Shown: positions 14,551-64,000 of the stretch, one piece after another | How the letters are laid out: every line of letters begins with the position of its first letter | Position numbering within the stretch: position 1 is the first letter of the stretch | Virus record (IMG/VR): IMGVR_UViG_3300038443_001578 | Location: 19,804-83,803 of that record | Reading direction: 5' to 3' (one strand) | Length of the DNA stretch: 64,000 nucleotides | From: a virus | Position numbers and translations under genes: made by a program | Notes under the pieces: generated by a model | Database searches by the model: none | Seen by the model: only the letters and a program-made list of their open reading frames with translations | Told to the model about the DNA's origin: nothing

Positions 14551-14675
14551 TCAATACCTCGCAAAGCAGCATCGGCACACCAGGATGCCGAACCGGAGAG
14601 TGTAACCGGCTTCAACCCTCCATGAGTACTGCCCTATCAGGCTGGGCGACGAACCCGACTTACGCCTCAACCACA

Positions 14676-14963
14676 ATGCCATCATTTCGACAGAACCGCC
14701 GCGCCCTTATGGATGCGGCTATTATTTCGCGTCAGGCCGCGCGGGAATCGCGCATGCAGTTCCCCGCTATAGGCCCATCTCGTTGTGTCCCCAACGATGT
14801 GCAATCGCTTGCCGATCAGATACAGCGACATAGCCCGAGCCGGGCGTGTCGCTGTTCTGACTGTGAGCGAGGCAGACGCATGCTCGCAAAAGGCATGCCG
14901 CCGGCAGAGCTGACTAACCGCCATGGCGAAAGTCGTCGGCCACAGTTCGCGTCCGAAGGGTAG
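14676..14963 (+). CDS. Hypothetical protein (CRCSDC)
   Basis: ORF after the tRNA; Cys cluster. Confidence 0.45.
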   Translation: MPSFRQNRRALMDAAIISRQAARESRMQFPAIGPSRCVPNDVQSLADQIQRHSPSRACRCSDCERGRRMLAKGMPPAELTNRHGESRRPQFASEG

Positions 14964-34087: not shown

Positions 34088-37000
34088 ATGGCCAATAAGA
34101 ACCAGGTTACCGTCAAAGTTAACGTTGCTGGAAACGACACGTCGGCCGGCAAAATCACCGCGCTCGGTGCATCGTTGAAGGCGGCAATTCGCGAGGTTGA
34201 AGCTGATTCCAAGCGGATGACGGCTATCACCCAGCAGCAGGTGAAGGCGGCAGAGCAGAGCGCAAAGGCGTCGATCGCAGTTGCGCGCGCCAAAGAGGCG
34301 AATGCCAAGGCTGTCGCTGCCGAACTCCGGGCCGAGGCGGCACTCAATCAGGCGATCGTCGCCGAGATCCGGGTCAAGAAGGAGTTGGAGGCGGTTGGGG
34401 TTTCGGTCGCCAAGGCTTCGGAATCGGCATCGCGAACATTGCTCAACGAGGCGAAGACGCGCAAGGAGCTGGCGAACGCCGAACTTGCCGAGGGGCGCAT
34501 TGCCAAAGCCGCAGCTCAGGAAAAGGTCGAGGGTGAGCGCAAGGTCGAGGCCGCCGTCAAACAGCGGATCGCCGCCGAAAACCGGCAGCAGCGCGATGAG
34601 AATTACGTCTCGCGGTCGCGGATCCTCGCGGAAAATCGGCAGCATCGGGACGAAAATTACGCGATTCGGTCGGGACAGGTCGTCGCTGAGAAGCGCAGCC
34701 AGGTAACCGGCATCGTGTCGACGGGCGCCATGGTCGGCGGCGCGGCCATTCTTGCCGGGCTCGACGCCGTAGGGCAGCAAGCCGCCAAGTTCGATTCCGC
34801 GATGCTGACCATCCGCAACAATACCACAATGACGGCACGTGACTTCGACCTTATGCGTGAGACGGTCCTGAAGCTCGGTAAGGATACTGGCGCGTCAACG
34901 GATGAGCTTGCTCAAGGCTTCATGCACATCGTGAACCTTGGCATCCCTGACGTGGTGAAGAATACTGCGAACGCTGTCACGATCCTGAATGCCGCGACGG
35001 TCGCGGCCATTGGAACGAACACGTCGGCGGCCGAGACGGCGAACATCCTGGCGAAGGCTCTGAAAGAGTTCGGTCTTCAGTCGGGTGAAGCGGCCCGTGT
35101 CATGGGCGTTCTGCACCGCGCCGCAGCACAGGGCAATATGACCCTGCAGGAGTTCGATGCGGCTGCGGGTCCCATGCTTTCCGTAGCGGCCGCACTCGGC
35201 GTTAAGGTGGAGGATGCCGCGGCTGCGTTCTCGGCTCTCACCCGCCACGGCTACGACGCAACGCAGGCGGCAACACAAGTGCGCGACGTCTTCCAGCACC
35301 TGATGAACCCGACATCTGGCGTACGCAAGGAGCTGGAGCACCTGACCAAGGCGACCGGCGTCGACCTCGTCGACGACTTCACGGCGGCCGGAATCAAGGC
35401 GAAGGGTTTGACCGGCATATTCCTCGACCTCGCACAGGCTACGAAAGGCCATGCCGATGAGGTCTATAAGCTCATTCCGGCCCTTCGGGGCGGCCAAGGC
35501 GCTATGGTGCTCGCCAGCACCGCCAGCAAGGATATGACGGACATACTCAAGGACTTGATGAGCGTCCGCGGGCAGGATCTGCGCCAACTGACAGGCTACA
35601 ACGATATGCATGGCACGCTCGCGAACTCCGTGGCTCGGCTCAACAATCAATTCCTCGAACTCTACACCAAGTACGGACCGCCTGTCATTGCCGTCCTGAA
35701 GGATATCGCGTCCGGAGCATCGAGCATCGCTGATGCCCTTAATTCGGTCGATCCGGAAACGCGCAAAGCAATTGTCTATTTCGGCCTCTTCGCCGGGGGA
35801 TTGCTGACTGTCGGGGGCGCTATCGGAAATGCTATTGTGGGGTTCCGTGAGTTCCGTAATCTCCTTGTCGGTGCCCGTCTGGCGTCGACTTTCGGCGAGA
35901 TCACGACTGCTGCGGAAGCGGCGACCACGGCGGAAGTCGCTACGGCTACGGCAGGTACCGCTGCGTTCGCGGTAGGTGCTCCGTATCTCCTCGCCATTGC
36001 GGGCGTGATCGCGGCTGTTGTGGCCATCAAAAAAGCGTGGGACGAGGCCGACGATGCGCAGCGGAAATATGCGGCCAAGAAGGCGACCGACTTCGCGTCG
36101 ACGCACACTATGGATGTTCGCACCAATGTTAACAACCAGATCGGTCTCAATAATGCTGAGATTGCGCAGCGACAAGGGGAGCTCGCCCGACTACAGGCCG
36201 ATAGTCGTTTGATTCGCGATCCATCTTCGGGCAGGATTATTCCGCGCCCAAATCGCGGGCTTGCTTCTGGGGTCACGAATTCCGATTCTGTCGCATGGGA
36301 GCAAAAGCGAATCGCGGCACTGCAAGCTGATGCAAATGCGATGACAGCCGATGCTCAGACACTGAGTGATCTTCAGAATAAGCGCCGTAGTCTGGCGCTG
36401 GCGATCTCGGCAGCCGAGAAGGAAGAGAAGGATAATTCCGCCAAGATAGCCTTCTACAAGAAGCACCTGCGCGAAACGAAAGGGCCATACTCGGACGCAG
36501 CCGCCGAAATCGAGCGGCTTACCCAGCGCAATATGGCGGTTGAGAGCGACCGGTTGAAAAATCAGAAGGCTCTGACAGCGCTGCCAGTATCTGCTGCTCC
36601 GATGTATTCCGGGAAGTTACTCAGTGAAGCAGCCGATGAGACGCGCAAAACTTTCAAGAAATTGCGGAACGAATGCGGTAACTTCGTCGATGCGCTTGTG
36701 AAACTACGCACCGGTAAGGCGTTCAGTGTCGGTGCAAACGAGAAGAATGGCGCTGATGCGCCGCTGAACGCTCAGGGCATCGGTCCGGCCGGCACGGTCT
36801 ACCACGTCCGAACCTCGAAAAAGGAAGGTCACTGGTTTACATCGGAAGAGGGGCCGAATGGTGTGATGATGGCCGTTCAGGACTTCAACGGCCGGGTACG
36901 CACCGACATCCCCGTCGCCGACATGTTGAAGAAGTTCCCCCTCATTTCAGCGAAGCTAGGACCAGGCGCAGGGCCAGCCACCGCGAGTATCAAAGGGGCG

Positions 37001-39358
37001 GCGCCAGCCGATAGTGATGAGTTGCGAGATCAAGCTGACGCGAAACTAAAGGACGCGGAACTCGACTCGAAGAAGGCAGAGGATGCACATCAATGGTTCA
37101 TCGATCAGTACAACCGCACTGGCGATGAGCGCAACTTAATTTGGGCCGGGCAGGCTCTAGCGAAACGTAAACGTGCTCAGATCCGTGAGGCGTTAGCCAA
37201 AGCTGGTGTCGATGCGACGAAAAAGACGCCGATGCCGGGTTCAGCATCGGCCCAACTTACCGCAGATAAATACGAAATCGATCAGCAGTTCAAACGTGAC
37301 CAACAGTCGTTGCAGGACCTTATTGCGGGTGGCAGCCCGAAGGAACTTCGCAAGCAGGCGCGCGACCTCTCTATCCTCGGCCTGCAGTCCAATCTCACAG
37401 CATACGAATCGTCGCGATCTATTCTCGAAAACACATTCTCGCGCACCGGTGATGCCAGCCTAATTGCGCCAATTCGCGCCAACCTACAAAGTTCGGCTCG
37501 TACTCAGCGACAAATGATCTGGACTAGGGCCGCCCAAGAGGTCGACGACGCAGGGGGCGACAAGGACAAGGTTCGTGCCATTAACCATAAGCGAGATGTC
37601 GACATCGCGGCTAATCGTGTTGAACTGTCTCGGCAATTGGTGGAACTCGACGACAAGGAGAATGATCTCAGGGCTAAGGGACTGGAGTTATCCAAGTCGG
37701 AAACCGGACAGACAATTCAGCGCATGCAGTCCGAAGCCGAGACGTCGAAAAGCTACGATAAAAAACTCTCGCTCTTAGAGCTAATCCGGCTCGCGCAGCA
37801 GAAGGAGATCGAACAGCAATACCAAATCGATGTCACGAATGCGCACAGTGATAAGCTTCTTCTTCAGAAGGCTAAGGATGACCGGAAGGCCGCCTTGGAC
37901 CAGGTCGACCTACAGTATCAGGCGGCGAAGGACAGCACGATCGACGATAAGCTGAAGTCTCGCGCGGAATTACTTCGAGCACAGGCTGATCAAGCGGCAA
38001 CATTGGCGGAAAGGCTCAGGCTTGTGACCGAGTATTACACGGTAATGCTTTCGCAACCTGGACTGACCGATGCAGAGAGCCGCATGCTGCTTCTTGAGGC
38101 TGCTCAAGCAACCGGTGACCTTCGCCGCAAAGACGCCTATCAAGGCATAATGCTGAACATTACTTCGGCACTTCAGCCCGGCGGTGCTAACCCTTACGCA
38201 AAGCGAGCCCTCGACCTTTCGCTCGATCAGTTACGAGATAAGCAGGTGATGGTGGGTACTGACGAGGAGCGCGCGCAAAGCCGAGGGGATATGCTGCAGA
38301 TCCTCGGTAATCCGGATGTTCAGAAACTGGCCGGCACTTCAGACATCCTCGCCCGGCTCAAGGCATTGCGGGCTTTGGAAGTGTCGCCCGATGAGACAAA
38401 GGCTGTCGATGAGATTATCGATCAGTTAACGAAGAAAACCAACCGATCGGACGTACTGCGTCAGGTCGGCGATAACATCACGGCCGCACTGGTCCAAGGC
38501 GCCGGACAGGCGAGTGGCGATTTCGTTCATGCGCTCTTGCACGGTCCAGGCTCGAAGGACGCGCTCAAGTCATTCACGGCTATGCTCACGGATGCCGCGG
38601 AGAACGCGCTTAGCGGCGGGGTGGATACACTGGTACAGGGCGGACTAAAGGACATCGGGTCGCTCTTCACCCATCATGTCGTCTTAGCTAAAAAAGCGAC
38701 CGGCGATATGAAGCAGAACGCCAGCGAAACCAAAGATGCCGTTGACCATTCGACTATCGCAACGAATGCGGCGGCGACCGGTATCAAAGACGCCGGTAAA
38801 GTCATGGATGCGTCAGGCAAGGCGGCCAAAGTCTCGATGGAGGAGGGTGCCGGCGCGATTATGATGGCGGTCAGCCAATTGATGGCGGGGGGCAATGCCA
38901 AAAAGCAGCAGAACTCGGCTATCGGCGGCATTCTCGGCATGGCGATCAGTCTGGCGATTCCCGGCGCTGGCACTGCAGGCCTTATGCTCGGCGGAGGCAT
39001 TGGTTCATTGCTGGGCGGCCTCTTCGCTGACGGCGGCTATCCTCCGGTTGGTAAGATGTCCATCGTCGGCGAACGCGGCCCCGAAGCGATCGTGCCCATG
39101 GGACCGGTGAAGGTGCTCAGCAACCGAGAATTGCGCATGATGAACGCGCCGGCACCGATTGCTACGAATGGCTCGGAGCGCGGTGGCGGCCTCATGTCGG
39201 TTCTCGGATCGTTGCATGCGCATGCCGCGAATGCCGGCCGTCCGATCGAGATCAATCAGAACATCGGATCAGTTGATAGTCAGGTCGACTTAGAATCTTC
39301 ATATCGTTCACTCGGCAAGCTTCTTGAGAACGCGATCCGTATGCCGATCCCGGTTTAG
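34088..39358 (+). CDS. Tape measure protein (TP901-type core) with internal CHAP-like domain
   Basis: 1756 aa, Ala-rich helical; core ...AAAQGNMTLQE...; C-terminal FADGG.P..G....VGERGPE. Confidence 0.92.
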   Translation: MANKNQVTVKVNVAGNDTSAGKITALGASLKAAIREVEADSKRMTAITQQQVKAAEQSAKASIAVARAKEANAKAVAAELRAEAALNQAIVAEIRVKKELEAVGVSVAKASESASRTLLNEAKTRKELANAELAEGRIAKAAAQEKVEGERKVEAAVKQRIAAENRQQRDENYVSRSRILAENRQHRDENYAIRSGQVVAEKRSQVTGIVSTGAMVGGAAILAGLDAVGQQAAKFDSAMLTIRNNTTMTARDFDLMRETVLKLGKDTGASTDELAQGFMHIVNLGIPDVVKNTANAVTILNAATVAAIGTNTSAAETANILAKALKEFGLQSGEAARVMGVLHRAAAQGNMTLQEFDAAAGPMLSVAAALGVKVEDAAAAFSALTRHGYDATQAATQVRDVFQHLMNPTSGVRKELEHLTKATGVDLVDDFTAAGIKAKGLTGIFLDLAQATKGHADEVYKLIPALRGGQGAMVLASTASKDMTDILKDLMSVRGQDLRQLTGYNDMHGTLANSVARLNNQFLELYTKYGPPVIAVLKDIASGASSIADALNSVDPETRKAIVYFGLFAGGLLTVGGAIGNAIVGFREFRNLLVGARLASTFGEITTAAEAATTAEVATATAGTAAFAVGAPYLLAIAGVIAAVVAIKKAWDEADDAQRKYAAKKATDFASTHTMDVRTNVNNQIGLNNAEIAQRQGELARLQADSRLIRDPSSGRIIPRPNRGLASGVTNSDSVAWEQKRIAALQADANAMTADAQTLSDLQNKRRSLALAISAAEKEEKDNSAKIAFYKKHLRETKGPYSDAAAEIERLTQRNMAVESDRLKNQKALTALPVSAAPMYSGKLLSEAADETRKTFKKLRNECGNFVDALVKLRTGKAFSVGANEKNGADAPLNAQGIGPAGTVYHVRTSKKEGHWFTSEEGPNGVMMAVQDFNGRVRTDIPVADMLKKFPLISAKLGPGAGPATASIKGAAPADSDELRDQADAKLKDAELDSKKAEDAHQWFIDQYNRTGDERNLIWAGQALAKRKRAQIREALAKAGVDATKKTPMPGSASAQLTADKYEIDQQFKRDQQSLQDLIAGGSPKELRKQARDLSILGLQSNLTAYESSRSILENTFSRTGDASLIAPIRANLQSSARTQRQMIWTRAAQEVDDAGGDKDKVRAINHKRDVDIAANRVELSRQLVELDDKENDLRAKGLELSKSETGQTIQRMQSEAETSKSYDKKLSLLELIRLAQQKEIEQQYQIDVTNAHSDKLLLQKAKDDRKAALDQVDLQYQAAKDSTIDDKLKSRAELLRAQADQAATLAERLRLVTEYYTVMLSQPGLTDAESRMLLLEAAQATGDLRRKDAYQGIMLNITSALQPGGANPYAKRALDLSLDQLRDKQVMVGTDEERAQSRGDMLQILGNPDVQKLAGTSDILARLKALRALEVSPDETKAVDEIIDQLTKKTNRSDVLRQVGDNITAALVQGAGQASGDFVHALLHGPGSKDALKSFTAMLTDAAENALSGGVDTLVQGGLKDIGSLFTHHVVLAKKATGDMKQNASETKDAVDHSTIATNAAATGIKDAGKVMDASGKAAKVSMEEGAGAIMMAVSQLMAGGNAKKQQNSAIGGILGMAISLAIPGAGTAGLMLGGGIGSLLGGLFADGGYPPVGKMSIVGERGPEAIVPMGPVKVLSNRELRMMNAPAPIATNGSERGGGLMSVLGSLHAHAANAGRPIEINQNIGSVDSQVDLESSYRSLGKLLENAIRMPIPV

Positions 39359-39418
39359 TGAAGGGAAACTGCAACCGCTCGTTGAATTAACCGTCCCATA
39401 TAATAGGAGGACGCTGCA

Positions 39419-40027
39419 ATGTCAAAGACAATTATTGATTTGAGGATACTTCTAGTGGCGCTAGTGGTCGCAATTGCATTTGCGCTCGATACAACTTCGT
39501 GCTTTGCAGATGAGGCAGGTGCCGATAAATCAAAGCAGATTCCCAATATTGAATCTTCAATCAATTCGAACGGTATATTGTATGTTCGTGACAGCAACAT
39601 GCTGACAACAGACGACTCACCAACTTATGTCGAAGCCTTTACGCTTACTTACCCTATAAGTAAAGCACCTATGGAAAAGGGGTTTCGAATCACTGTACGT
39701 TCAAAAGATAACGATGTTGATGATTCTGCCAGTTGTTACTTGGATTATGATGAGGCAAAAGCTTTATCGGCCGCATTGAAATACTTGGGGCAGCTTACGG
39801 TAGATTGGCGCGGAAGATCCGATATTGGGTCGAAAGAGGCCGTTTTTAAAACACTTGGTGGATACAGTATAGCCTTGACGCATAATGCGGATGGCAAGCA
39901 TCAAGATGCGGTCGAAATTGGTGTTGAAGGGATTCACACCGTAGCCCATAAATGCAGCGACGCTGAATTTCTTGACTTGGCATCGATAATTGATGATGGT
40001 CTTAAGTGGCTTGACAATCGGAAGTGA
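39419..40027 (+). CDS. AT-richer exported protein (moron-like)
   Basis: Hydrophobic N-terminus, AGGAGG RBS, visibly lower GC than flanking genes. Confidence 0.7.
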   Translation: MSKTIIDLRILLVALVVAIAFALDTTSCFADEAGADKSKQIPNIESSINSNGILYVRDSNMLTTDDSPTYVEAFTLTYPISKAPMEKGFRITVRSKDNDVDDSASCYLDYDEAKALSAALKYLGQLTVDWRGRSDIGSKEAVFKTLGGYSIALTHNADGKHQDAVEIGVEGIHTVAHKCSDAEFLDLASIIDDGLKWLDNRK

Positions 40028-40079
40028 TCTAGCGACAAACACAACCCTCGGAAGAACATCCGAGAGTTGCGTATGGAGA

Positions 40080-40190
40080 ATGCCCTCAGAAAATCCAAGG
40101 GCATCCGCGCCAGAACTTGCCGCGACTCGCCTTGCCGAAACCCGACTTGCCGAAACCCGACTTGCCCCACCTGGCCAGGCCTGCCATGCC
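40080..40190 (-). ncRNA. Minus-strand G(G/T)Y-NN pentamer array ending in a hairpin (putative guide-like RNA)
   Basis: GGCA followed by 15 in-phase pentamers, then hairpin ATGCCCT...AGGGCAT. Confidence 0.6.
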
Positions 40191-40239
40191 TATTGGATCT
40201 AGCCGATCCAGTTGTCGACTGCCGCAAAGAGCGGCGTCA

Positions 40240-40381
40240 GTTATGGCGCGGCGAGCTTTGGCAGGCAAGGTACGGCAAGTCACGGCGGTGTATGTTCAGG
40301 TTCGGCGTGGCAGGTTTTGGCAGGCGAGGCGAGTCCGGCCTAGGCGCGGTATGTTGCGTCGAGTTGTGGCAACGCTAGGCA
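40240..40381 (+). ncRNA. Plus-strand G(G/T)Y-NN pentamer array (putative guide-like RNAs)
   Basis: Two exact 59-nt units (11 pentamers + GGCA) at 40264-40322 and 40323-40381, plus a short upstream unit. Confidence 0.65.
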
Positions 40382-40384
40382 GAC

Positions 40385-40423
40385 GAAAGGCTCTTCATCT
40401 TCGGATGGAGGGCCTTTCTTATT
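40385..40423 (+). terminator. Hairpin/terminator closing the plus-strand array
   Basis: GAAAGGCTCTTCATC-TTCG-GATGGAGGGCCTTTC-TTATT. Confidence 0.7.
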
Positions 40424-40434
40424 GAGGTTTCGAG

Positions 40435-41184
40435 ATGCCAACATTTTTCGTGAATTCCTTCGGCGCATACTCGTTCGGAAACAACCTGGCGAAGATCACC
40501 ACGACGGCTAATTGGCGTGATCGGACCGCGGAACGTCCCAACCGCGGCGGCAAGTTCAGCGCAGGGCCAATTTTTTCAAGCCTATCGTGTGTGTTGGATG
40601 GCGTTTTGACAGGCGCGAGCAGCTCACCACAGGACATGCGGGACGCTATCGACGCGCTTGCTGCGGCGTTCGCACTGGGGAAATCTGCTCAGCTAAAAAT
40701 TGACGATGACCGGTATCTTAATGTTGAAGTTCGTTCATTTGGCTACGCAGAAGGGTGGAAGGGCTTGCCTTATCTACCATGGACGGCAAGCCTTGAATCG
40801 TATGACGATCCTCCGATATGGGACGTCGCCTCAACGAGCGTATCGAGTCTCCTGACCGATGGCTCCGCAAACAATTTCACCTGTGCAGGCAGCGGAACAG
40901 CCCAACCGATCATTACGATCGCTTTTAGCGCAGCACCCTCCGGGTCGACGTGCACAATCACCGATCAGCTTGGCAACCAGTTCGTCATCAGTCCGGATGC
41001 GGCTACCACGTTCGTGGTCGATTCCACGCAGGAGACGGTGACGGTTGGCGGGGTCGATAAGTCGAGCGTTTGCACAGGTGTATTCCCACTTTGTCCGGCC
41101 GGCGCGAACGACCTGACGATTGTTTTATCCGGTGGCGCCACGGTGTCGAGTGCTAGCCTGTCGTATCAAGCCAGAAGATACTAA
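40435..41184 (+). CDS. Distal tail protein (Dit-like)
   Basis: Position after TMP; L.IDDDRY, FP....G.N.L, .Y..RY ending. Confidence 0.75.
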   Translation: MPTFFVNSFGAYSFGNNLAKITTTANWRDRTAERPNRGGKFSAGPIFSSLSCVLDGVLTGASSSPQDMRDAIDALAAAFALGKSAQLKIDDDRYLNVEVRSFGYAEGWKGLPYLPWTASLESYDDPPIWDVASTSVSSLLTDGSANNFTCAGSGTAQPIITIAFSAAPSGSTCTITDQLGNQFVISPDAATTFVVDSTQETVTVGGVDKSSVCTGVFPLCPAGANDLTIVLSGGATVSSASLSYQARRY

Positions 41185-41196
41185 TAGAAACTCTCC

Positions 41197-41227
41197 AGCC
41201 CTGCCTCAAATCGAGGCGGGGCTTTTT
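41197..41227 (+). terminator. Intrinsic terminator
   Basis: AGCCCTGCCTC...GAGGCGGGGCT followed by a T-run. Confidence 0.75.
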
Positions 41228-41235
41228 GATTCACC

Positions 41236-44200
41236 ATGTCACTCCCCACGGACCTCAGAATTAAGATCACGAGCGCGGACGGCTCGATTGATCGGCTCGT
41301 GCCGCAATCGAAGCTCTTTACGCCTTCATGGTCCATCGAGCGCTATGGCGGTTACGGCGAGTTCAGCCTGCCGACCGGGCTTGATTACCGCACGTTCACC
41401 CGTGTTCAGCAGGGCGACATGGTCGAGGTCTACTTCCAGGGCGTGCGCAAGTACCGCGGATACGTCACGGAACGGAAGCGGAGCAACGACAACCCGCGAA
41501 AACTCAGCCTGAGTGCCTACGGGGCGGCCTTCTGGCTACGGAAGGTGCCGGTTTCAAAAACGTACGCCTTCCCAGCCGGGGCAACCGACGTGTCAGTGGC
41601 TTTCGCTCAGTTCTGCAACGACTTCCTGCTCGGCAACGTCGGGCCGGGCGGTATCCAACTCGCTTACAGTGTTCAGGCGGAAACGATCGGCACGACGATC
41701 CTCAATCTCGATGCCCGTTACAAGTCCGCCGGAGACGTGCTTGATGCGATCATCGGCGAAACCGGCAACCTCGCGGTGTGGGGAGTCGATGTCGACTCCG
41801 AGGGTTACAATCGCATCTATCTGCGCCCCTTCTCTGATACGACACCGCCGAACAACCCAGACTTCGTTATCTTCGCCCCTGGCATCAACGTTGAAGCCTC
41901 CGAAGGACCGGAGACGATTGCCGACGTCGTAAACGCAGTGATCGTGCAGGGCGGCGCAGCTAAGTTCCCTCAGCTTCTGCACAACGGCAATTTCGAGCTC
42001 CCGGTCTACCAGAACGACGGCGCCGGCAACATGGTACTCAACGGTGGTTTCGAATCGGGAGGTTTCCATGTCGCCGACGATTGGACGCTGGCGAACGGCG
42101 CGTCAGTCGAGAGCGGGAAAAACCAGTCGCCGGCGCGCGCAGTCGCGTTCGAAGGATCGCGGTACCTCGAGCTCGACCACGTGAGCGAGAATGCCGTGCA
42201 GAATGGGACAGGGACGTGGGCGGCCGGGCACAACTACGTATTTTCTTGCCAGATGGCTAAGGAAGTCGATCAACAGTCTCTTTCCGGGCATGCGCGCCTA
42301 ATCATCAAGGACGGCACGAGCGCTGTCGTCTTCGATTCCGGCAGTGTGACCATGCAGCCGCCGGGCCAGGACTGGGAATACTTCTCGATCCCATTCACCT
42401 TTCCGACGAGCGGCTTTACGGCAGGTTCCGGGACGTTCCAGATCACCTTCAACCTGGATTCGATTACCGCCTTCGGCGGCCAGCAAGGCGGCCTCATTAT
42501 CGATGCGGTCGAATTACAAGACGTCTCCGTCGTTTATCAGGACGGATGGGAGATCCAGGCGACCGGCGACGCGGTGATTAACAGTGTTAATTGGGTGTGC
42601 CAGGAGAGCTACGAGGGGGCGTACTCCCTGTATGTCGATGGCTCGACGTTCGCCGATGCGGATGCTCGCGATGTTGAGATTATTCCTGCATCTGGCCAGG
42701 TGTCGAACAACTATCAGAACACAAATAAGGTCAAGGTGCAGACGGGTCAATCCCTGCGCTTCGCCGGATGGTTCAAGTCCCCAAGCTTTCCGAGCATTCA
42801 CCCTAATTTCCCGGCCCTCCTGCTCATTTTCGATTGGCTGGACAGCAGCTCCAATTTCCTCTCGCAGAGCCGGAACGAGATCGCCGCTCCGGGCGGTCAG
42901 ATTACGCAGTGGACGTATTACGAGCTGAACGCCACGGCGCCGACGAACGCCGTCTATTGCCTGCCTCGCGCTATTCTGCGATCGACCGGGTCGATATTGA
43001 TGGATGCGCTCTCAATCCGAGACAGTCAGGCGCCGCCGATGGCGCTCCTTACGACGTCTGTCACGAACACAAACGGAACCGGGACCGTCGCCTCTCTAAT
43101 CGTCTACAACATGTATCAGTACACCGTGTTCACGACCACAACAGCTCTCTCCGTCGGTGACACGGTGCTGTTTACTTCCGGGGCTGCTTCGGGAAAGACG
43201 GGCGTCGTCGTCAATGCTCCGCTTGTAAGCGGCTCCTACCACGTCTACATCAACCAGAAGTTGACGACGGGGCCATCCGCCGGGGATTCGTTCTCGTATA
43301 CGCGCAACACCGGAGGAACAACAACCTCGGCAACAAGCGGAAGCACGACCGCGATCGGAAACTACCTGCCCGAAGGCAATCTACAGTTCATCATCAGTTG
43401 CGACGATCCGTATCTGGCTCAGGTGTGGTGGCCATCACAGGGGAACCCGAGCAGCGCGCCACCGTCGACGAGCACGGTTAGCGCTCCAACGACGGCGGTA
43501 ACTCTGTCGGCTGCAACGCCTACCTCTCCGACGAACCTCGCGGCCGGCACCTACACCGTCGGCTATACCGTCACGATCGGAGGCATCGAGAGCACGGTCG
43601 GCGGAACGGCCAGCATCACGATCACCGAAGGGCAAGAGATCCTGGCGACGGTGTCCAGCCTGCCAGGCGGAACGACGCTGGTCAAGTATTACGTCAATCC
43701 GGCATATGTCCCGATCGGAGCCTCATCGGCGAGCAAACCCTACTATTTCGCGGCAGTGGCCGCCAACGGCTCGCAGGTGACGATAACGACCTTCTTGAGC
43801 GTCCCGTCGTACTTTTTCAGCCAGATGCTCTACGGCGTGCAGTGCGATACCGTCAGCGACACGAACATCATCGACCTTACGGGCGCCATGTCGGTCGCCG
43901 ATGCTGTCTTCCGCGCGAAGTCGCAGCCTGTGTATCGACCAACGGCAACCCTTGACGGCGATACCCGCGCATTCTGGCCCGGCAACAGCGTAAGCCTGCA
44001 GGGGACGGACGGACCATCGATTAGCGGGGCGATGCTGCCGATCGTGCGCATCCGCCAGACGCACGACGGCATACTCAAGACGACGCTCGAGCTCGAGCGA
44101 GAACAACCTGATATTTCGATCACGCTCAAGAAGTTGTTCCTGCAGCTCCTCCGGTCGCAGGGGGTTGCCGCGGGAGGCGCGAGCTTCGGATCGGCAGGAA

Positions 44201-48578: not shown

Positions 48579-49775
48579 TTATGGTGTAAGTGTCAATATA
48601 TCTTCGTCGTATACCCTGCGCAAGGGTAAAAATGCCTGTATCAATTCCCGATTTGCGCTAAAACCAGGCCCATCTCGCACAATCAGGTCCATATCAATAA
48701 GAGCCATAATATCGCGGCGTATTGTCCTTGAACTCTTGCCCGCATAGGCCGCAGCCACTCTTGGGGAGATCATTGGTATCTCGTGGATGAGTGATCTATT
48801 GGGTCGTTCTGACATGTCAAGTACAAGGTGTTTCTGTCGGCGATCCGCCACGGAGTCTCGTCCTCGAAAAACTTCATGGACGTAGTTCACCCATGTAAGT
48901 TGCCACTGAACCTGCCGAATATGCTGCAGTTGCGCCATCAACCCATCGACGAATCCGCGAACGGCGTACTCGACGAACGGAATAGAATCGCCACCGCCCT
49001 TACTGGATCGATCGAGTTGCCGGTAATAGTCCGTACGTGTGGCGTTGTAATGATTGCTGAGTAGATGTGAAGCTGGTGACGGCACGCCGGCCGCGAGTAA
49101 AATGCGATGCTCGAGCAGACGTGATGTACGGCCGTTGCCATCACCGAATGGGTGTATCCAAACCAGATAAAGATGCGCGAGAATGGCTCTCAGTATTCCA
49201 AAGACCATCGCGTCTGGATTGTTACTCGGAAGGAACGCGGGCTCATTCAACCATGAGCACATTCGGTCAAGGAGATATTCACAATCTTCTCGTGGGGCGC
49301 CGAGGTAATTTGCAACACCAACATTGTGCAATGATATCTCCCCAGGCTTGATCTCGTCATCAAGTTCAAGTCCATTTAAAACGATCCTGTTGAATTCCTT
49401 GATGATATCAGGGGTAATGAGTTCAAAATCTCGTTGTGTTGCCGCAAGGTTCAGCATCTGATTGCATGCGTTCACGACGTTATCCACTTCTTGTCCTAGG
49501 TATTCCCGAGATTCTGGCAACTTGAGCTTGCCCTGCATACGCTGCCTGACCTCTTCCTCCGTCAAGGTGTTGCCCTCAATCGCCGTCGTCGCATGAGCAC
49601 CTTTCGCCAAATAAACCCTATGTAACTCACCGGCTACCAGTGGAGGTAATGGAACTCCTGCAATATGCTCACACTTAGACCTCGCTTCACCCAGAGCCAT
49701 CCATAGGCGTGCGCTCATACGATTAGTATCAAACAGGAAGTTGAGCCAAGAATGCGATTGTTCATAACGCCTCAA
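48579..49775 (-). CDS. Fic-domain protein (class II) with C-terminal HTH
   Basis: HPFGDGNGRTSR catalytic motif; N-terminal TTAIEGN inhibitory motif; SSRTIRRDI..L. Confidence 0.92.
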   Translation of the reverse strand: MRRYEQSHSWLNFLFDTNRMSARLWMALGEARSKCEHIAGVPLPPLVAGELHRVYLAKGAHATTAIEGNTLTEEEVRQRMQGKLKLPESREYLGQEVDNVVNACNQMLNLAATQRDFELITPDIIKEFNRIVLNGLELDDEIKPGEISLHNVGVANYLGAPREDCEYLLDRMCSWLNEPAFLPSNNPDAMVFGILRAILAHLYLVWIHPFGDGNGRTSRLLEHRILLAAGVPSPASHLLSNHYNATRTDYYRQLDRSSKGGGDSIPFVEYAVRGFVDGLMAQLQHIRQVQWQLTWVNYVHEVFRGRDSVADRRQKHLVLDMSERPNRSLIHEIPMISPRVAAAYAGKSSRTIRRDIMALIDMDLIVRDGPGFSANRELIQAFLPLRRVYDEDILTLTP

Positions 49776-54039: not shown

Positions 54040-54729
54040 ATGGTCACCCCATTCAATGAAACGACGTTCGAAGAGACGGTTACGGTCGAGCGAAACTTCC
54101 TGCCGGAAGCAGGACCGTCGGCGCATGCGCGTTTCCTCGATATGCTCCACAACCCCGGTGAGACGTGGATCTTCGCATTCACGCTCAACGATCCAGACCT
54201 GCTCGACGAGATCGACAAGGCGGATGCGAACGGCGTCGTCGGACACCTCCTCATCGATCATACACAGTTCACTACGCCGGGCGAGCATCAGCTTCTATTG
54301 ACGCATCTGGCGCGGTGGAAGCACTGGGACGTCACGATCACGACGGCCGGTATCGGCTCCTCGCAAAAGTCACAGATATGGCATTACAAGGTCGCTGTCG
54401 TCGACGATGTCGAAGGCGGCGAGCCGCTTTGCATGGAAGGGAGCTGCAATCTGTCGGGCGCGAAGACCGGATGGGCGGAAGGCAACTTGGTCAGCTTCTT
54501 CCGGTCTGCGAAGTTCGCCGGTGCGGTCGTTGCCGAATATCTCAAGCACCGCGATTGGGCACGTGAGAACGAAGCCCGTTACCAGGTGCAGCCGGACGTT
54601 TCGACCAAGCCGCCAACGTCCGTCATGGATGCCCTGGCCACCGCCGGCGATCACGGCGCGATCGCGACACCGAAGGCGGTGGCAGCGGCACGCTGCCCGA
54701 CCGGTACGACGCTGGCGACGGGCATTTGA
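54040..54729 (+). CDS. Phospholipase D/Nuc-family protein (single HKD motif)
   Basis: HYKVAVVD...EGSCNLS...EGN; AFTLND..L. Confidence 0.8.
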   Translation: MVTPFNETTFEETVTVERNFLPEAGPSAHARFLDMLHNPGETWIFAFTLNDPDLLDEIDKADANGVVGHLLIDHTQFTTPGEHQLLLTHLARWKHWDVTITTAGIGSSQKSQIWHYKVAVVDDVEGGEPLCMEGSCNLSGAKTGWAEGNLVSFFRSAKFAGAVVAEYLKHRDWARENEARYQVQPDVSTKPPTSVMDALATAGDHGAIATPKAVAAARCPTGTTLATGI

Positions 54730-63677: not shown

Positions 63678-64000
63678 GCTGCAACCTCTTCGCGCTCGGC
63701 CTCTGTCAGCGGCTTTCCGTCATTGAGGGCTATTTCTCGCAGTTCCGCCGGGGCGTTCGGGTGCCGGGCGACCCCGGACCGCACATCCGAATTGCCGTCA
63801 CCGGCGAGCTTCGAGAGCAGTTCCGCCGGGGCGTTCGGGTGCCGGGCGACCCAGTACCGCACATTCCACTGGGCGTCACCGGCGAGCTTCGAGAGCAGTT
63901 CCGCCGGGGCGTTCGGGTGTTGGGCGACCCCGGACCGCACATCCGAATTGCCGTCACCGGCGAGCTTCGAGAGCAGTTCCGCCGGGGCGTTCGGGTGCCG
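63674..64000 (-). CDS. LRV/HEAT-like repeat protein (5' end beyond the window)
   Basis: VARHPNAPAELLSKLAGD 26-aa repeats; 78-nt DNA period at 63740, 63818, 63896, 63974. Confidence 0.8.
   Translation of the reverse strand, partial: RHPNAPAELLSKLAGDGNSDVRSGVAQHPNAPAELLSKLAGDAQWNVRYWVARHPNAPAELLSKLAGDGNSDVRSGVARHPNAPAELREIALNDGKPLTEAEREEVAA

What the first reader, a model, noticed from the sequence alone, without database searches (positions are those of the whole stretch)
40235..40423. Punctuated G(G/T)Y-NN pentamer array with two exact 59-nt units: candidate guide RNAs with a gapped code
Seen in sequence: 40264-40322 reads ggcAA ggtAC ggcAA gtcAC ggcGG tgtAT gttCA ggtTC ggcGT ggcAG gttTT GGCA. 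40323-40381 reads ggcGA ggcGA gtcCG gccTA ggcGC ggtAT gttGC gtcGA gttGT ggcAA cgcTA GGCA. Each unit is 11 pentamers closed by GGCA; a shorter unit precedes them and a TTCG-loop hairpin follows. The first three bases are constrained and the last two vary freely, which is not how a decaying microsatellite looks. Inference: a scaffold-plus-variable-dinucleotide RNA cut at GGCA, bound by one protein subunit per pentamer, whose NN pairs spell a non-contiguous target. If one target base is skipped per NN, recognition could ignore wobble positions. From memory (please verify), this resembles recently reported phage VIPR-type RNAs bound by a RAMP/Cas7-like protein. No RAMP-like gene is recognisable in this window, so the array is orphan here or its effector lies outside.
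Basis: partly seen in the sequence, partly recalled or inferred. Interest (0 to 1): 0.92.

Follow-up and report, generated by a model that had tools for sequence, protein, structure and literature searches.

The report
Orphan VIPR guide-RNA arrays in phage
Between two tail genes, this soil phage carries two back-to-back arrays of five-base repeats that match the guide RNAs of the recently described CRISPR-like VIPR system, but it has no gene for the VIPR protein, so it is a new example of a known kind.

Summary
40235-40381 (+) holds GKY-NN pentamers in units of 29, 59 and 59 nt, each closed by GGCA, followed by a TTCG-loop terminator hairpin. A second array of 15 pentamers runs the other way on the minus strand (40181-40107).

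Each 59-nt unit is 12 pentamers overlapping the next by one base. This is the "staggered vrRNA array" of VIPR systems (bioRxiv 10.64898/2026.04.26.720920). A scan of IMG/VR for this grammar returned at least 120 loci. Of 395 boundary spacings, 300 were 4 mod 5. In 91 of 120 loci a Vipr gene sits beside the array, and its profile hits the solved SUSP1 Vipr protein (E 1.7e-13).

The same profile finds nothing in this phage's 83.8-kb genome, which CheckV rates 100% complete. The arrays are therefore solo (orphan) vrRNAs, a class already reported for Enterobacteriaceae phages (10.64898/2026.10.15.759431). This scan has noted such solos before on other DNA: 16 findings in at least 15 genomes.

No natural target was established. 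The best lead is that guide P2 spells a conserved motif of the neighbouring Dit tail gene (P about 0.01-0.03, uncorrected). No RNA data exist.

The parts
39419..40027 (+). ORF202, a 202-aa ORFan with a signal-peptide-like N-terminus. GC is 0.43 against 0.59 for the genome. It appears to be part of the same inserted cassette between the tape-measure and Dit genes. It is not Vipr.
   Evidence: GC 0.43, GC3 0.39. No Pfam or PHROG hit. Only itself among 5.8 bn proteins. hhalign against the Vipr profile gives probability 0.13%. The AF2 model is unusable, pLDDT 35.7.
40039..40072 (.). 14-bp hairpin between ORF202 and the minus array. It looks like a bidirectional terminator for ORF202 (+) and for the minus-strand array transcript.
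   Evidence: Fold (part of the -46.3 kcal/mol structure, z -7.6). Rfam gives only a hairpin-like chance match (mir-219, below gathering score). The terminator function is inferred.
40078..40106 (-). 13-bp hairpin directly after the last pentamers of the minus array (3' tail of guide M1).
40107..40181 (-). Guide unit M1: 15 consecutive G[GT][CT]NN pentamers. A 16th, GGATG, runs into the hairpin. Contains a 15-nt internal duplication.
40182..40190 (-). Leader of the minus array: GGCAT GGCA, the first boundary. The G that follows starts M1.
   Evidence: The same GGCAT GGCA leader is seen in a Vipr-linked array, L007.
40191..40234 (.). 44-nt core between the two divergent arrays. Presumed to hold divergent promoters.
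   Evidence: Inference only. The sigma-70 consensus scan found no promoter here. The host is unknown.
40235..40263 (+). Short leader unit of the plus array: 5 pentamers closed by GGCA.
   Evidence: Short leader units before the first boundary are usual in Vipr-linked arrays.
40264..40322 (+). Guide unit P1: 59 nt, which is 12 pentamers sharing its last G with the next unit.
   Evidence: Unit lengths in the family peak at 9-13 pentamers.
40323..40381 (+). Guide unit P2: 59 nt, 12 pentamers, closed by GGCA(G).
40385..40423 (+). 15-bp hairpin with a TTCG loop, then TTATT. Looks like an intrinsic terminator ending the plus array.
   Evidence: I4. Vipr-linked staggered arrays end in similar hairpins (L010, L036, L045).
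40705..40736 (+). Site in the phage's own Dit gene (40435-41184) that guide P2 partly spells: 15 of 22 guide bases, with guide bases at codon positions 1-2. This is a lead to a possible target in rival phages, not a target here.
   Evidence: Dit is assigned by PHROG phrog_33.

Best explanation
The 400-nt spacer between the tape-measure gene (plus a small foreign ORF) and the Dit gene holds two divergently oriented, non-coding arrays of VIPR guide RNAs (vrRNAs) of the staggered type.

Each array is probably one transcript that begins in the 44-nt core and ends at a hairpin. The plus one would yield a short leader piece and two 12-repeat guides (P1, P2). The minus one would yield one 15-16-repeat guide (M1). 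Neighbouring guides share one base at the GGCA|G boundary.

By analogy with the published system, one Vipr protomer binds each pentamer, hides the G-K-Y bases and presents the NN pairs. Together the NN pairs read double-stranded DNA with every third base skipped, and the complex silences transcription.

This phage has no vipr gene, so the guides are solo vrRNAs. They can act only with a Vipr protein supplied by another element in the same cell, such as a co-infecting phage or a resident prophage. They would redirect that protein to targets of this phage's choosing.

Shown here: the grammar, its membership in a large Vipr-linked family, and the absence of vipr. Inferred: transcription, processing, borrowing of Vipr, and the targets.
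For: (1) Grammar. Of 46 pentamers, G1 is G in 43, position 2 is G or T in 44, position 3 is Y in 45, and NN is free. Two units are exactly 59 nt, which is 12 x 5 - 1. The arrays are unstructured and the ends are strongly structured.

(2) The family is real and Vipr-linked.
- 300 of 395 spacings under 150 nt between boundaries are 4 mod 5.
- The logo of 425 boundaries shows GGY-NN upstream, in a part the search pattern did not constrain, in the frame that ends with GGCAG. The next frame starts on that G.
- A type II Vipr HMM hits an ORF in 89 of 120 loci, and a clade HMM in 91 of 120.
- All 91 array calls in Vipr-positive loci lie on vipr's strand, 78 of them downstream.
- The profile of 21 of these proteins hits PDB 36pp 'SUSP1 Vipr protein' at E 1.7e-13 over nearly its full length.

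(3) Positive control. My caller finds the published SUSP1 vrRNAs beside vipr in KT454805.

(4) Orphan status.
- tblastn with SUSP1 Vipr: best E 1.3.
- Type II HMM: best E 2 over 936 six-frame ORFs.
- Clade HMM: best E 0.88.
- The genome search on G000: 0 matches at E<=10, CheckV completeness 100. The same query gives 4.4e-76 in a control record.
- No RAMP family among the 21 Pfam families hit by 75 ORFs at E<=1e-5, nor in the ten ORFs.
- The T-rich position 2 would not hide a cognate Vipr. Vipr proteins next to the most GTY-rich arrays (L057, L077, L048) score 237-243 bits with the clade HMM.

(5) The arrays look intact. G1 is 0.95 and Y3 is 1.00, at or above the means of 76 Vipr-linked loci (0.94 and 0.93).

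(6) Literature.

(7) As the paper reports for native guides, no self-target appears in the phage's own genome.
Against: No RNA evidence exists. No listed run is RNA.

No promoter was found by the sigma-70 consensus scan.

No natural target was established.
- Exact 9-unit gapped scans of IMG/VR gave 2, 0, 0, 3 and 1 hits. That is about what I roughly estimate for chance, and none exceeded 24 of 32 over the full guide.
- A 10-unit M1 scan of metagenomes and genomes hit only low-complexity KGS-repeat genes, best 24 of 30.
- Scores on 120 VIPR loci and on 91 vipr genes equal the shuffled nulls.
- So the gapped code is not demonstrated for these guides.

Position 2 is T in 35% of pentamers. That is above every one of the 76 Vipr-linked loci measured (maximum 0.34, median 0.05). 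It could mean decay, or a partner with different specificity.

The donor of Vipr and the host are unknown. No orthologous locus exists to show conserved GKY with variable NN at this very site.

IMG/VR classes the record as linear, so completeness rests on CheckV's estimate.
Confidence: 0.78

Rival explanations
1. The arrays are a relic. An ancestor had vipr plus arrays, vipr was lost, and the arrays are now inert DNA drifting towards decay.
For: No vipr in the genome. Position 2 is unusually degenerate (T 0.35, above all 76 Vipr-linked loci). No target stands out from controls. No promoter consensus.
Against: G1 (0.95) and Y3 (1.00) are as clean as in Vipr-linked arrays. The two 59-nt units keep exact length and all four GGCAG boundaries. 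Both arrays keep strong terminal hairpins. All 91 array calls in Vipr-positive loci lie on vipr's strand, so two divergent arrays are not what a simple deletion of vipr would leave. Solo vrRNAs are shown to be functional in another VIPR clade (abstract).
Confidence: 0.13
2. The system is complete. A very divergent RAMP-fold effector that sequence profiles cannot see is encoded elsewhere in the 83.8-kb genome.
For: The papers stress that RAMPs share little sequence similarity. Many ORFs of this phage have no annotation. I could not fold them all.
Against: Arrays with this exact grammar go with Vipr proteins that the profiles detect easily: 91 of 120 loci, and at least 3 of the other 29 are false positives. 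vipr sits on the array's strand in all 91 calls. Here the neighbours are ORF202 (hhalign probability 0.13%), the tape-measure gene and Dit.
Confidence: 0.05
3. The repeats are not guide RNAs at all. They could be a DNA-level repeat (protein-binding iterons, or a slippage product) or part of a coding sequence.
For: The minus array contains a 15-nt tandem repeat, 3.5 copies. ORFs of 102-103 aa lie over the arrays.
Against: A 5-nt period with a -1 slip every 59 nt cannot be a codon pattern. The plus array has no higher-order repeat. The overlapping ORFs have no PHROG hit. ORFs over arrays in other loci cluster only because they translate the array grammar. The same grammar sits next to vipr in 91 of 120 loci.
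Confidence: 0.03

Closest known systems
Staggered vrRNA arrays of VIPR systems (bioRxiv 10.64898/2026.04.26.720920; text of Results and legend of fig. S18)
   Same: Tandem GGY/NN pentamers, 12-16 per unit (the published range is 9-16). Neighbouring units overlap by one base. There is no separate tail between units, and a hairpin closes the array. In IMG/VR the same GGCAG-punctuated grammar lies beside Vipr homologues.
   Different: There is no vipr gene. All 91 Vipr-linked array calls I sampled are on vipr's strand, 78 downstream of it, whereas here two arrays point away from each other. Position 2 of the scaffold is T in 35% of pentamers. Which of the seven VIPR types this clade is I could not tell: the figures and supplements were not available to me.
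Solo (orphan) vrRNAs of F5 satellites and of VIPR-null SUSP1-family phages (bioRxiv 10.64898/2026.10.15.759431)
   Same: vrRNA genes sit on a mobile element with no Vipr on the same contig. [quoted passage not shown]
   Different: Those are type II vrRNAs, each with its own pseudoknot tail, in Enterobacteriaceae phages, at the site of a vipr-vap1 deletion. Many have predicted targets (vipr, other vrRNAs, satellites). Here the arrays are staggered, in an uncultivated temperate phage from plant and rhizosphere metagenomes, inserted between tail genes, with no established target. They do not match the 91 vipr genes tested.
Type II VIPR of Escherichia phage SUSP1 (KT454805; PDB 36pp)
   Same: The pentamer code. 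My caller recovers the SUSP1 vrRNAs. The Vipr proteins next to staggered arrays are homologous to SUSP1 Vipr (E 1.7e-13).
   Different: SUSP1 has vipr plus vap1. Its vrRNAs are about 100 nt, mostly GGT-NN, each with a conserved tail. No conserved vap-like neighbour was found in the staggered-array loci: the largest real neighbour cluster is in 7 loci.
CRISPR arrays and Class 1 crRNA-Cas7 filaments
   Same: An RNA-guided RAMP filament with periodic unpaired positions (as the papers describe).
   Different: There are no repeat-spacer units, no cas genes, a 5-nt period, and guide information held in dinucleotides.

Membership tests
VIPR vrRNA (any type) | Tandem pentamers with a conserved GGY (or related) trinucleotide and hypervariable NN, at least 4 and typically 9-16 units | tested here: met
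   G1 43 of 46, position 2 G or T 44 of 46, Y3 45 of 46, NN free. Units of 12, 12 and 15-16 pentamers.
VIPR vrRNA (any type) | Unstructured repeat tract capped by a structured 3' element | tested here: inconclusive
   The tracts are unstructured (z -0.4 to -1.1) and each array ends in a strong hairpin (z -4.7 and -7.6). The hairpins look like plain terminators, and no tail conserved with other loci was found.
VIPR vrRNA (any type) | Expressed as small RNAs that co-purify with Vipr | not testable with these tools
   No RNA run is listed for this DNA. Only metagenome contigs were available.
VIPR vrRNA (any type) | NN dinucleotides match natural targets under the 1-nt skip rule, usually wobble-aligned in coding sequence | tested here: inconclusive
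   No hit of 80% or more at DNA level. The best lead is P2 against the Dit motif: up to 18 of 22 at protein level in 3 of 150 homologues, P 0.010 (shuffles) and 0.016 (natural guides), before correction for three guides and several target sets. P2 also reaches 17 of 22 on an unrelated set.
Staggered vrRNA array | Neighbouring vrRNAs overlap by 1 nt, so unit length is 5n-1 | tested here: met
   Units of 59 nt closed by GGCA, with the next G shared. The family shows 300 of 395 spacings at 4 mod 5 and the two-frame logo.
Complete VIPR system | A vipr (RAMP) gene next to the arrays | tested here: not met
   Best E 1.3, 2 and 0.88, and no match at all in the genome search. The control record gave 4.4e-76. 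ORF202 is not Vipr.
Solo (orphan) vrRNA | [quoted passage not shown] | tested here: met
   The whole 83,803-bp record has no hit. CheckV completeness is 100.
Solo (orphan) vrRNA | Acts with a Vipr protein supplied in trans by a co-resident element | not testable with these tools
   Host and co-resident elements are unknown. The nearest cultured phages share only distant terminase and portal similarity.

The most novel reading that the evidence does not exclude
The cassette is a 'turn your own gun on you' weapon of a temperate phage. As a prophage it makes solo guides that load onto the Vipr protein of an incoming VIPR-positive relative. They aim that protein at the relative's own essential tail gene: guide P2 spells the conserved DDRY..AEV motif of the Dit gene that lies right next to the array. 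The resident phage's own Dit is changed at the guide-read codon positions (15 of 22, below the 80% used for targets). This would make staggered solo arrays a heritable, gene-linked exclusion device against close kin, outside the enterobacterial SUSP1 world.
Probability: 0.15. Interest if true: 0.65.

Novelty: new member of a known kind. Interest (0 to 1): 0.36.

Why it matters
VIPR systems were described only in 2026. In the texts I read, solo guides have been documented for one clade, in enterobacterial phages and their satellites.

This locus shows the same strategy with the staggered array type, in an unrelated, uncultivated temperate phage from plant-root metagenomes. That supports the view that borrowing a rival's RNA-guided protein is widespread.

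The family survey also gives practical recognition rules for staggered arrays:
- a GGCAG boundary;
- spacings of 5n-1;
- arrays on vipr's strand, mostly downstream of it;
- no conserved accessory gene.

It also carries a warning for annotators: ORFs called across such arrays cluster like a conserved protein family.

It does not change the picture of how VIPR works.

Tried and rejected
Relatives of the locus.
- blastn of 39300-41300 against 50,697 phage records: no match.
- The search for related loci with Dit and with ORF202 in IMG/VR: none.
- ORF202 has no homologue.
- Dit has one homologue at 55% identity.
- The direct test 'conserved GKY, variable NN at orthologous sites' therefore could not be done. 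I used the family logo instead.

Rfam: only sub-threshold chance hits.

Expression: no RNA holder is listed. Laying four metagenome runs showed identical contigs and no variants. This says nothing about expression.

Host.
- Terminase is 38-46% identical to actinophage terminases.
- The portal gives only remote hits.
- The 1120-aa tail protein has no match.
- The host remains unknown.

ORF202 as effector.
- The AF2 single-sequence model has pLDDT 35.7 and is unusable, so no fold search was made.
- ESM Atlas neighbours are unnamed hypothetical proteins.
- hhalign probability against Vipr is 0.13%.

Tails and core against the 120 loci: only short grammar-level matches.

Other orphan arrays.
- Of the 29 loci without Vipr, I examined ten whole records.
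- L014, L031 and L071 are false positives: other tandem repeats.
- L036 and L045 are real arrays, but on fragments 25-27% complete.
- I have no second proven orphan of this type.

PADLOC on 75 ORFs showed only the first 25 of 63 families, all helicase or methylase-like, so it is not a test for Cas or RAMP.

The '~9 loci expected by chance', and the '1-2 per scan' for the 9-unit target patterns, are my own rough estimates from an assumed collection size and uniform base composition. They are not tool results.

M1 units 1-9 hit three IMG/VR genes, all at an L[HQ]GNGS[NK]GS motif and wobble-aligned. The rest of the guide does not match (23-24 of 32). I rejected these as targets.

Tables S2-S3 and data S3-S4 of the first preprint, and Supplementary Tables 10-11 of the second, may already list this clade, its type number, or this contig.

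Full report
THE SEQUENCE.

The finding lies in a 407-nt non-coding stretch (40028-40434) of a phage tail module. Upstream is a 1756-aa tape-measure gene (34088-39358; PHROG tape-measure families, best E 8.5e-47). After it comes a 202-aa ORF of foreign composition (39419-40027; GC 0.43 against 0.59 for the genome). Downstream are the distal tail protein Dit (40435-41184, phrog_33) and a 1120-aa tail protein.

There is a 29-nt unit, then two 59-nt units. Each is a run of G-K-Y-N-N pentamers closed by GGCA. A 15-bp hairpin with a TTCG loop and then TTATT follow.

The minus strand holds a second array that the finding's coordinates omit. It starts with GGCAT GGCA, then has 15 consecutive pentamers (40181-40107), then two hairpins.

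Over 46 pentamers:
- position 1 is G in 43;
- position 2 is G in 30 and T in 14;
- position 3 is a pyrimidine in 45;
- positions 4-5 use all bases.

Nothing comparable occurs elsewhere in the window or in the whole 83.8-kb genome. The repeat tracts do not fold better than shuffles. The ends do.

WHAT IS KNOWN.

I read the following:
- 10.64898/2026.04.26.720920: abstract, full Results, methods sections 18, 20, 26 and 27, and supplementary-figure legends.
- 10.64898/2026.04.26.720927: abstract and one section.
- 10.64898/2026.10.15.759431: abstract, sections 8, 17 and 24, and the Discussion.
- 10.64898/2026.10.21.760802: passages only.

What they report:
- VIPR systems consist of a small RAMP protein, Vipr, and vrRNAs of 9-16 GGY/NN pentamers.
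- One Vipr protomer binds each repeat and hides GGY.
- The NN pairs read DNA with one base skipped, usually the codon wobble base.
- The complex silences transcription.
- Besides arrays of separately tailed vrRNAs there are 'staggered arrays' whose vrRNAs overlap by 1 nt.
- Satellites and 346 VIPR-null enterobacterial phages carry solo vrRNAs that must borrow Vipr in trans.

IS THIS LOCUS OF THAT KIND?

A 59-nt unit is 12 pentamers minus one base. The closing GGCA plus the next G is a twelfth pentamer that shares its last base with the next unit.

I scanned IMG/VR for two such boundaries 49-69 nt apart.

- Among 395 boundary spacings under 150 nt, 300 are 4 mod 5, with peaks at 44, 49, 54, 59 and 64.
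- The composition around 425 boundaries shows GGY-NN in the unconstrained upstream part, in the frame that ends with GGCAG. The downstream frame begins on that G.
- Unit lengths peak at 9-13 pentamers.

For the protein side I fetched SUSP1 (KT454805). I confirmed that my caller finds its vrRNAs beside a 195-aa and a 146-aa gene. I collected 120 homologues of the 195-aa protein and built an HMM from 118 of them.

- That HMM hits an ORF in 89 of the 120 loci.
- A second HMM, built from 84 of those hits, finds 91 of 120.
- All 91 array calls in these loci lie on vipr's strand, 78 of them downstream, at a median of 460 nt.
- A profile of 21 of the proteins hits PDB 36pp, 'SUSP1 Vipr protein', at E 1.7e-13 over residues 4-188.
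- At least three of the 29 negatives are false positives, being other tandem repeats. Several others are short fragments.
- No conserved accessory gene accompanies vipr in this clade. The two largest 'neighbour clusters' are merely translations of the arrays themselves.

So the grammar at 40100-40381 is that of a large, Vipr-linked family of staggered vrRNA arrays.

IS THERE A VIPR HERE?

No.

- SUSP1 Vipr by tblastn: best E 1.3.
- Type II HMM: best E 2 over 936 six-frame ORFs.
- Clade HMM: best E 0.88.
- The genome search on the whole record with the 21-sequence profile: nothing at E<=10. The same query gives 4.4e-76 in a control record.

The record is 83,803 bp. The window is its last 64 kb. 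CheckV rates it 100% complete. Its last 127 nt repeat positions 82-208.

ORF202 is not Vipr (hhalign probability 0.13%). It has no homologue anywhere.

Pfam finds 21 families in 75 further ORFs, none of them a RAMP. They include an integrase and a recombination directionality factor, so the phage is temperate.

By the published definition the arrays are therefore solo vrRNAs.

ARE THEY INTACT?

G1 (0.95) and Y3 (1.00) are at or above the means of 76 Vipr-linked loci (0.94 and 0.93).

Position 2 is T in 35% of pentamers, higher than in any of those loci (maximum 0.34, median 0.05).

Vipr proteins beside the most T-rich arrays are ordinary members of the clade at 237-243 bits. So the T-richness does not explain the missing protein. 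It could reflect either the taste of a particular partner or early decay.

Exact unit lengths, all four boundaries and both terminal hairpins are preserved.

TARGETS.

This is the weak part.

- The phage's own genome has no match above shuffled guides at skips 0-2.
- The 120 VIPR loci and the 91 vipr genes give scores equal to the nulls.
- Exact 9-unit 1-nt-skip patterns in IMG/VR gave 2 hits for P1 (20-21 of 24, not wobble-phased), 0 and 0 for P2, and 3 and 1 for M1.
- The three M1 hits all fall on an L[HQ]GNGS[NK]GS motif and are wobble-phased, but the rest of the guide fails (23-24 of 32).
- A 10-unit M1 pattern in metagenomes (17 loci) and genomes (11 loci) found only KGS-repeat genes, at most 24 of 30.

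Earlier notes of this scan reported solo guides that spell the neighbouring gene as rivals carry it, so I tested the flanks.

- P2 matches the adjacent Dit gene at 40705-40736 in 15 of 22 bases, with guide bases at codon positions 1-2.
- Shuffle P is 0.026 for Dit alone and 0.057 for both flanking genes.
- Among 150 Dit homologues, P2's best windows pile up on the same conserved motif, D-D-R-Y-x-x-A-E-V. It reaches up to 18 of 22, as a protein-level upper bound, in 3 of them.
- P is 0.010 against shuffles, and 2 of 122 natural guides from other loci score as high.
- The phage's own copy has V where 46 of the 56 homologues whose best P2 window lies on this motif have A.
- However, P2 also scores 17 of 22 on a conserved motif of the unrelated type II Vipr set (P 0.03).
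- Three guides and several target sets were tried.

I treat the Dit match as a lead only.

VERDICT.

The locus is best read as a pair of solo, staggered-type VIPR guide arrays carried as a small insert in the tail operon of a VIPR-null temperate phage from plant and rhizosphere metagenomes. This is a new member of a known kind.

In the texts I read, solos are described only for the SUSP1 (type II) clade. I made one literature search and could not see the supplements, so I do not claim that staggered solos are unpublished.

The scan itself has already reported solo VIPR guides on other DNA: 16 findings in at least 15 genomes.

Expression, processing, the Vipr donor and the targets remain to be shown.

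Noticed in passing
window 39419-40027: ORF202 is an AT-rich (GC 0.43) ORFan with a signal-peptide-like N-terminus. It sits between the tape-measure gene and the arrays. ESM Atlas structural neighbours are unnamed bacterial proteins of about 200 aa (TM 0.70-0.73). Its function is unknown, and whether it is linked to the arrays is open.
   Followed up: partly
G000:C1 82-208 and 83677-83803 (window 63874-64000): The last 127 nt of the record repeat positions 82-208, not 1-127. This looks like an assembler overlap of a circular or permuted genome, offset by 81 nt. IMG/VR classes the record as linear.
   Followed up: no
loci L002-L121 (IMG/VR), arrays next to vipr: ORFs called across staggered arrays, sense and antisense, form the two largest 'protein clusters' around vipr (79 and 56 loci). 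This is an annotation artefact that could pass for a conserved accessory protein.
   Followed up: yes
L041:3362-4298: This is the only sampled locus with staggered arrays on both strands, convergent rather than divergent as here. It is on a 4,993-nt contig with no Vipr hit. It may be another solo cassette. Its ORFs are unrelated to this phage's.
   Followed up: partly
L066:31-330 and L092 (minus strand, about 14600-14880): Two GTY-rich arrays (T at position 2 in 0.50 and 0.41 of pentamers), without a Vipr hit in the stored DNA, sit directly upstream of the same gene (protein starts MFKMLMTG). Both records are short or fragments.
   Followed up: no
window 40107-40181 (-) versus L124, L125, L126: The first nine units of guide M1 spell L[HQ]G[NK]GS[NK]GS. 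All three exact hits in IMG/VR lie on such a motif near the start of what look like LamG-type tail-fibre domains (my recollection of the motif, not tested). So the guide's internal 15-nt duplication mirrors an NGS-NGS peptide repeat.
   Followed up: partly
window 48579-49775 (-), 54040-54729 (+); other ORFs of G000 not located: Cargo and lifestyle genes: a Fic/DOC protein and a PLD-like protein in the window. Somewhere among 75 ORFs there are an integrase, a recombination directionality factor, an IS1595-type transposase, an SNF2 helicase, Prim-Pol/DUF3987, GH25 lysozyme, a DNA methylase and an SU10-type capsid protein. The alignment-mode search does not say which ORF carries which.
   Followed up: no
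G000:C1 17296-17350 (+), outside the window: A weak GGY-NN signal, 6 of 10 pentamers, inside a GC-rich 270-aa ORF. Probably chance.
   Followed up: no
window 40323-40377 versus type II Vipr homologues P0001-P0120: Guide P2 also spells, at up to 17 of 22, a conserved DDH[LM]A[ML]AEAE[FY] motif of SUSP1-type Vipr proteins (P 0.03). Published solo guides often target vipr, but at DNA level P2 does not match the 91 staggered-clade vipr genes (16 of 22, P 0.25).
   Followed up: partly
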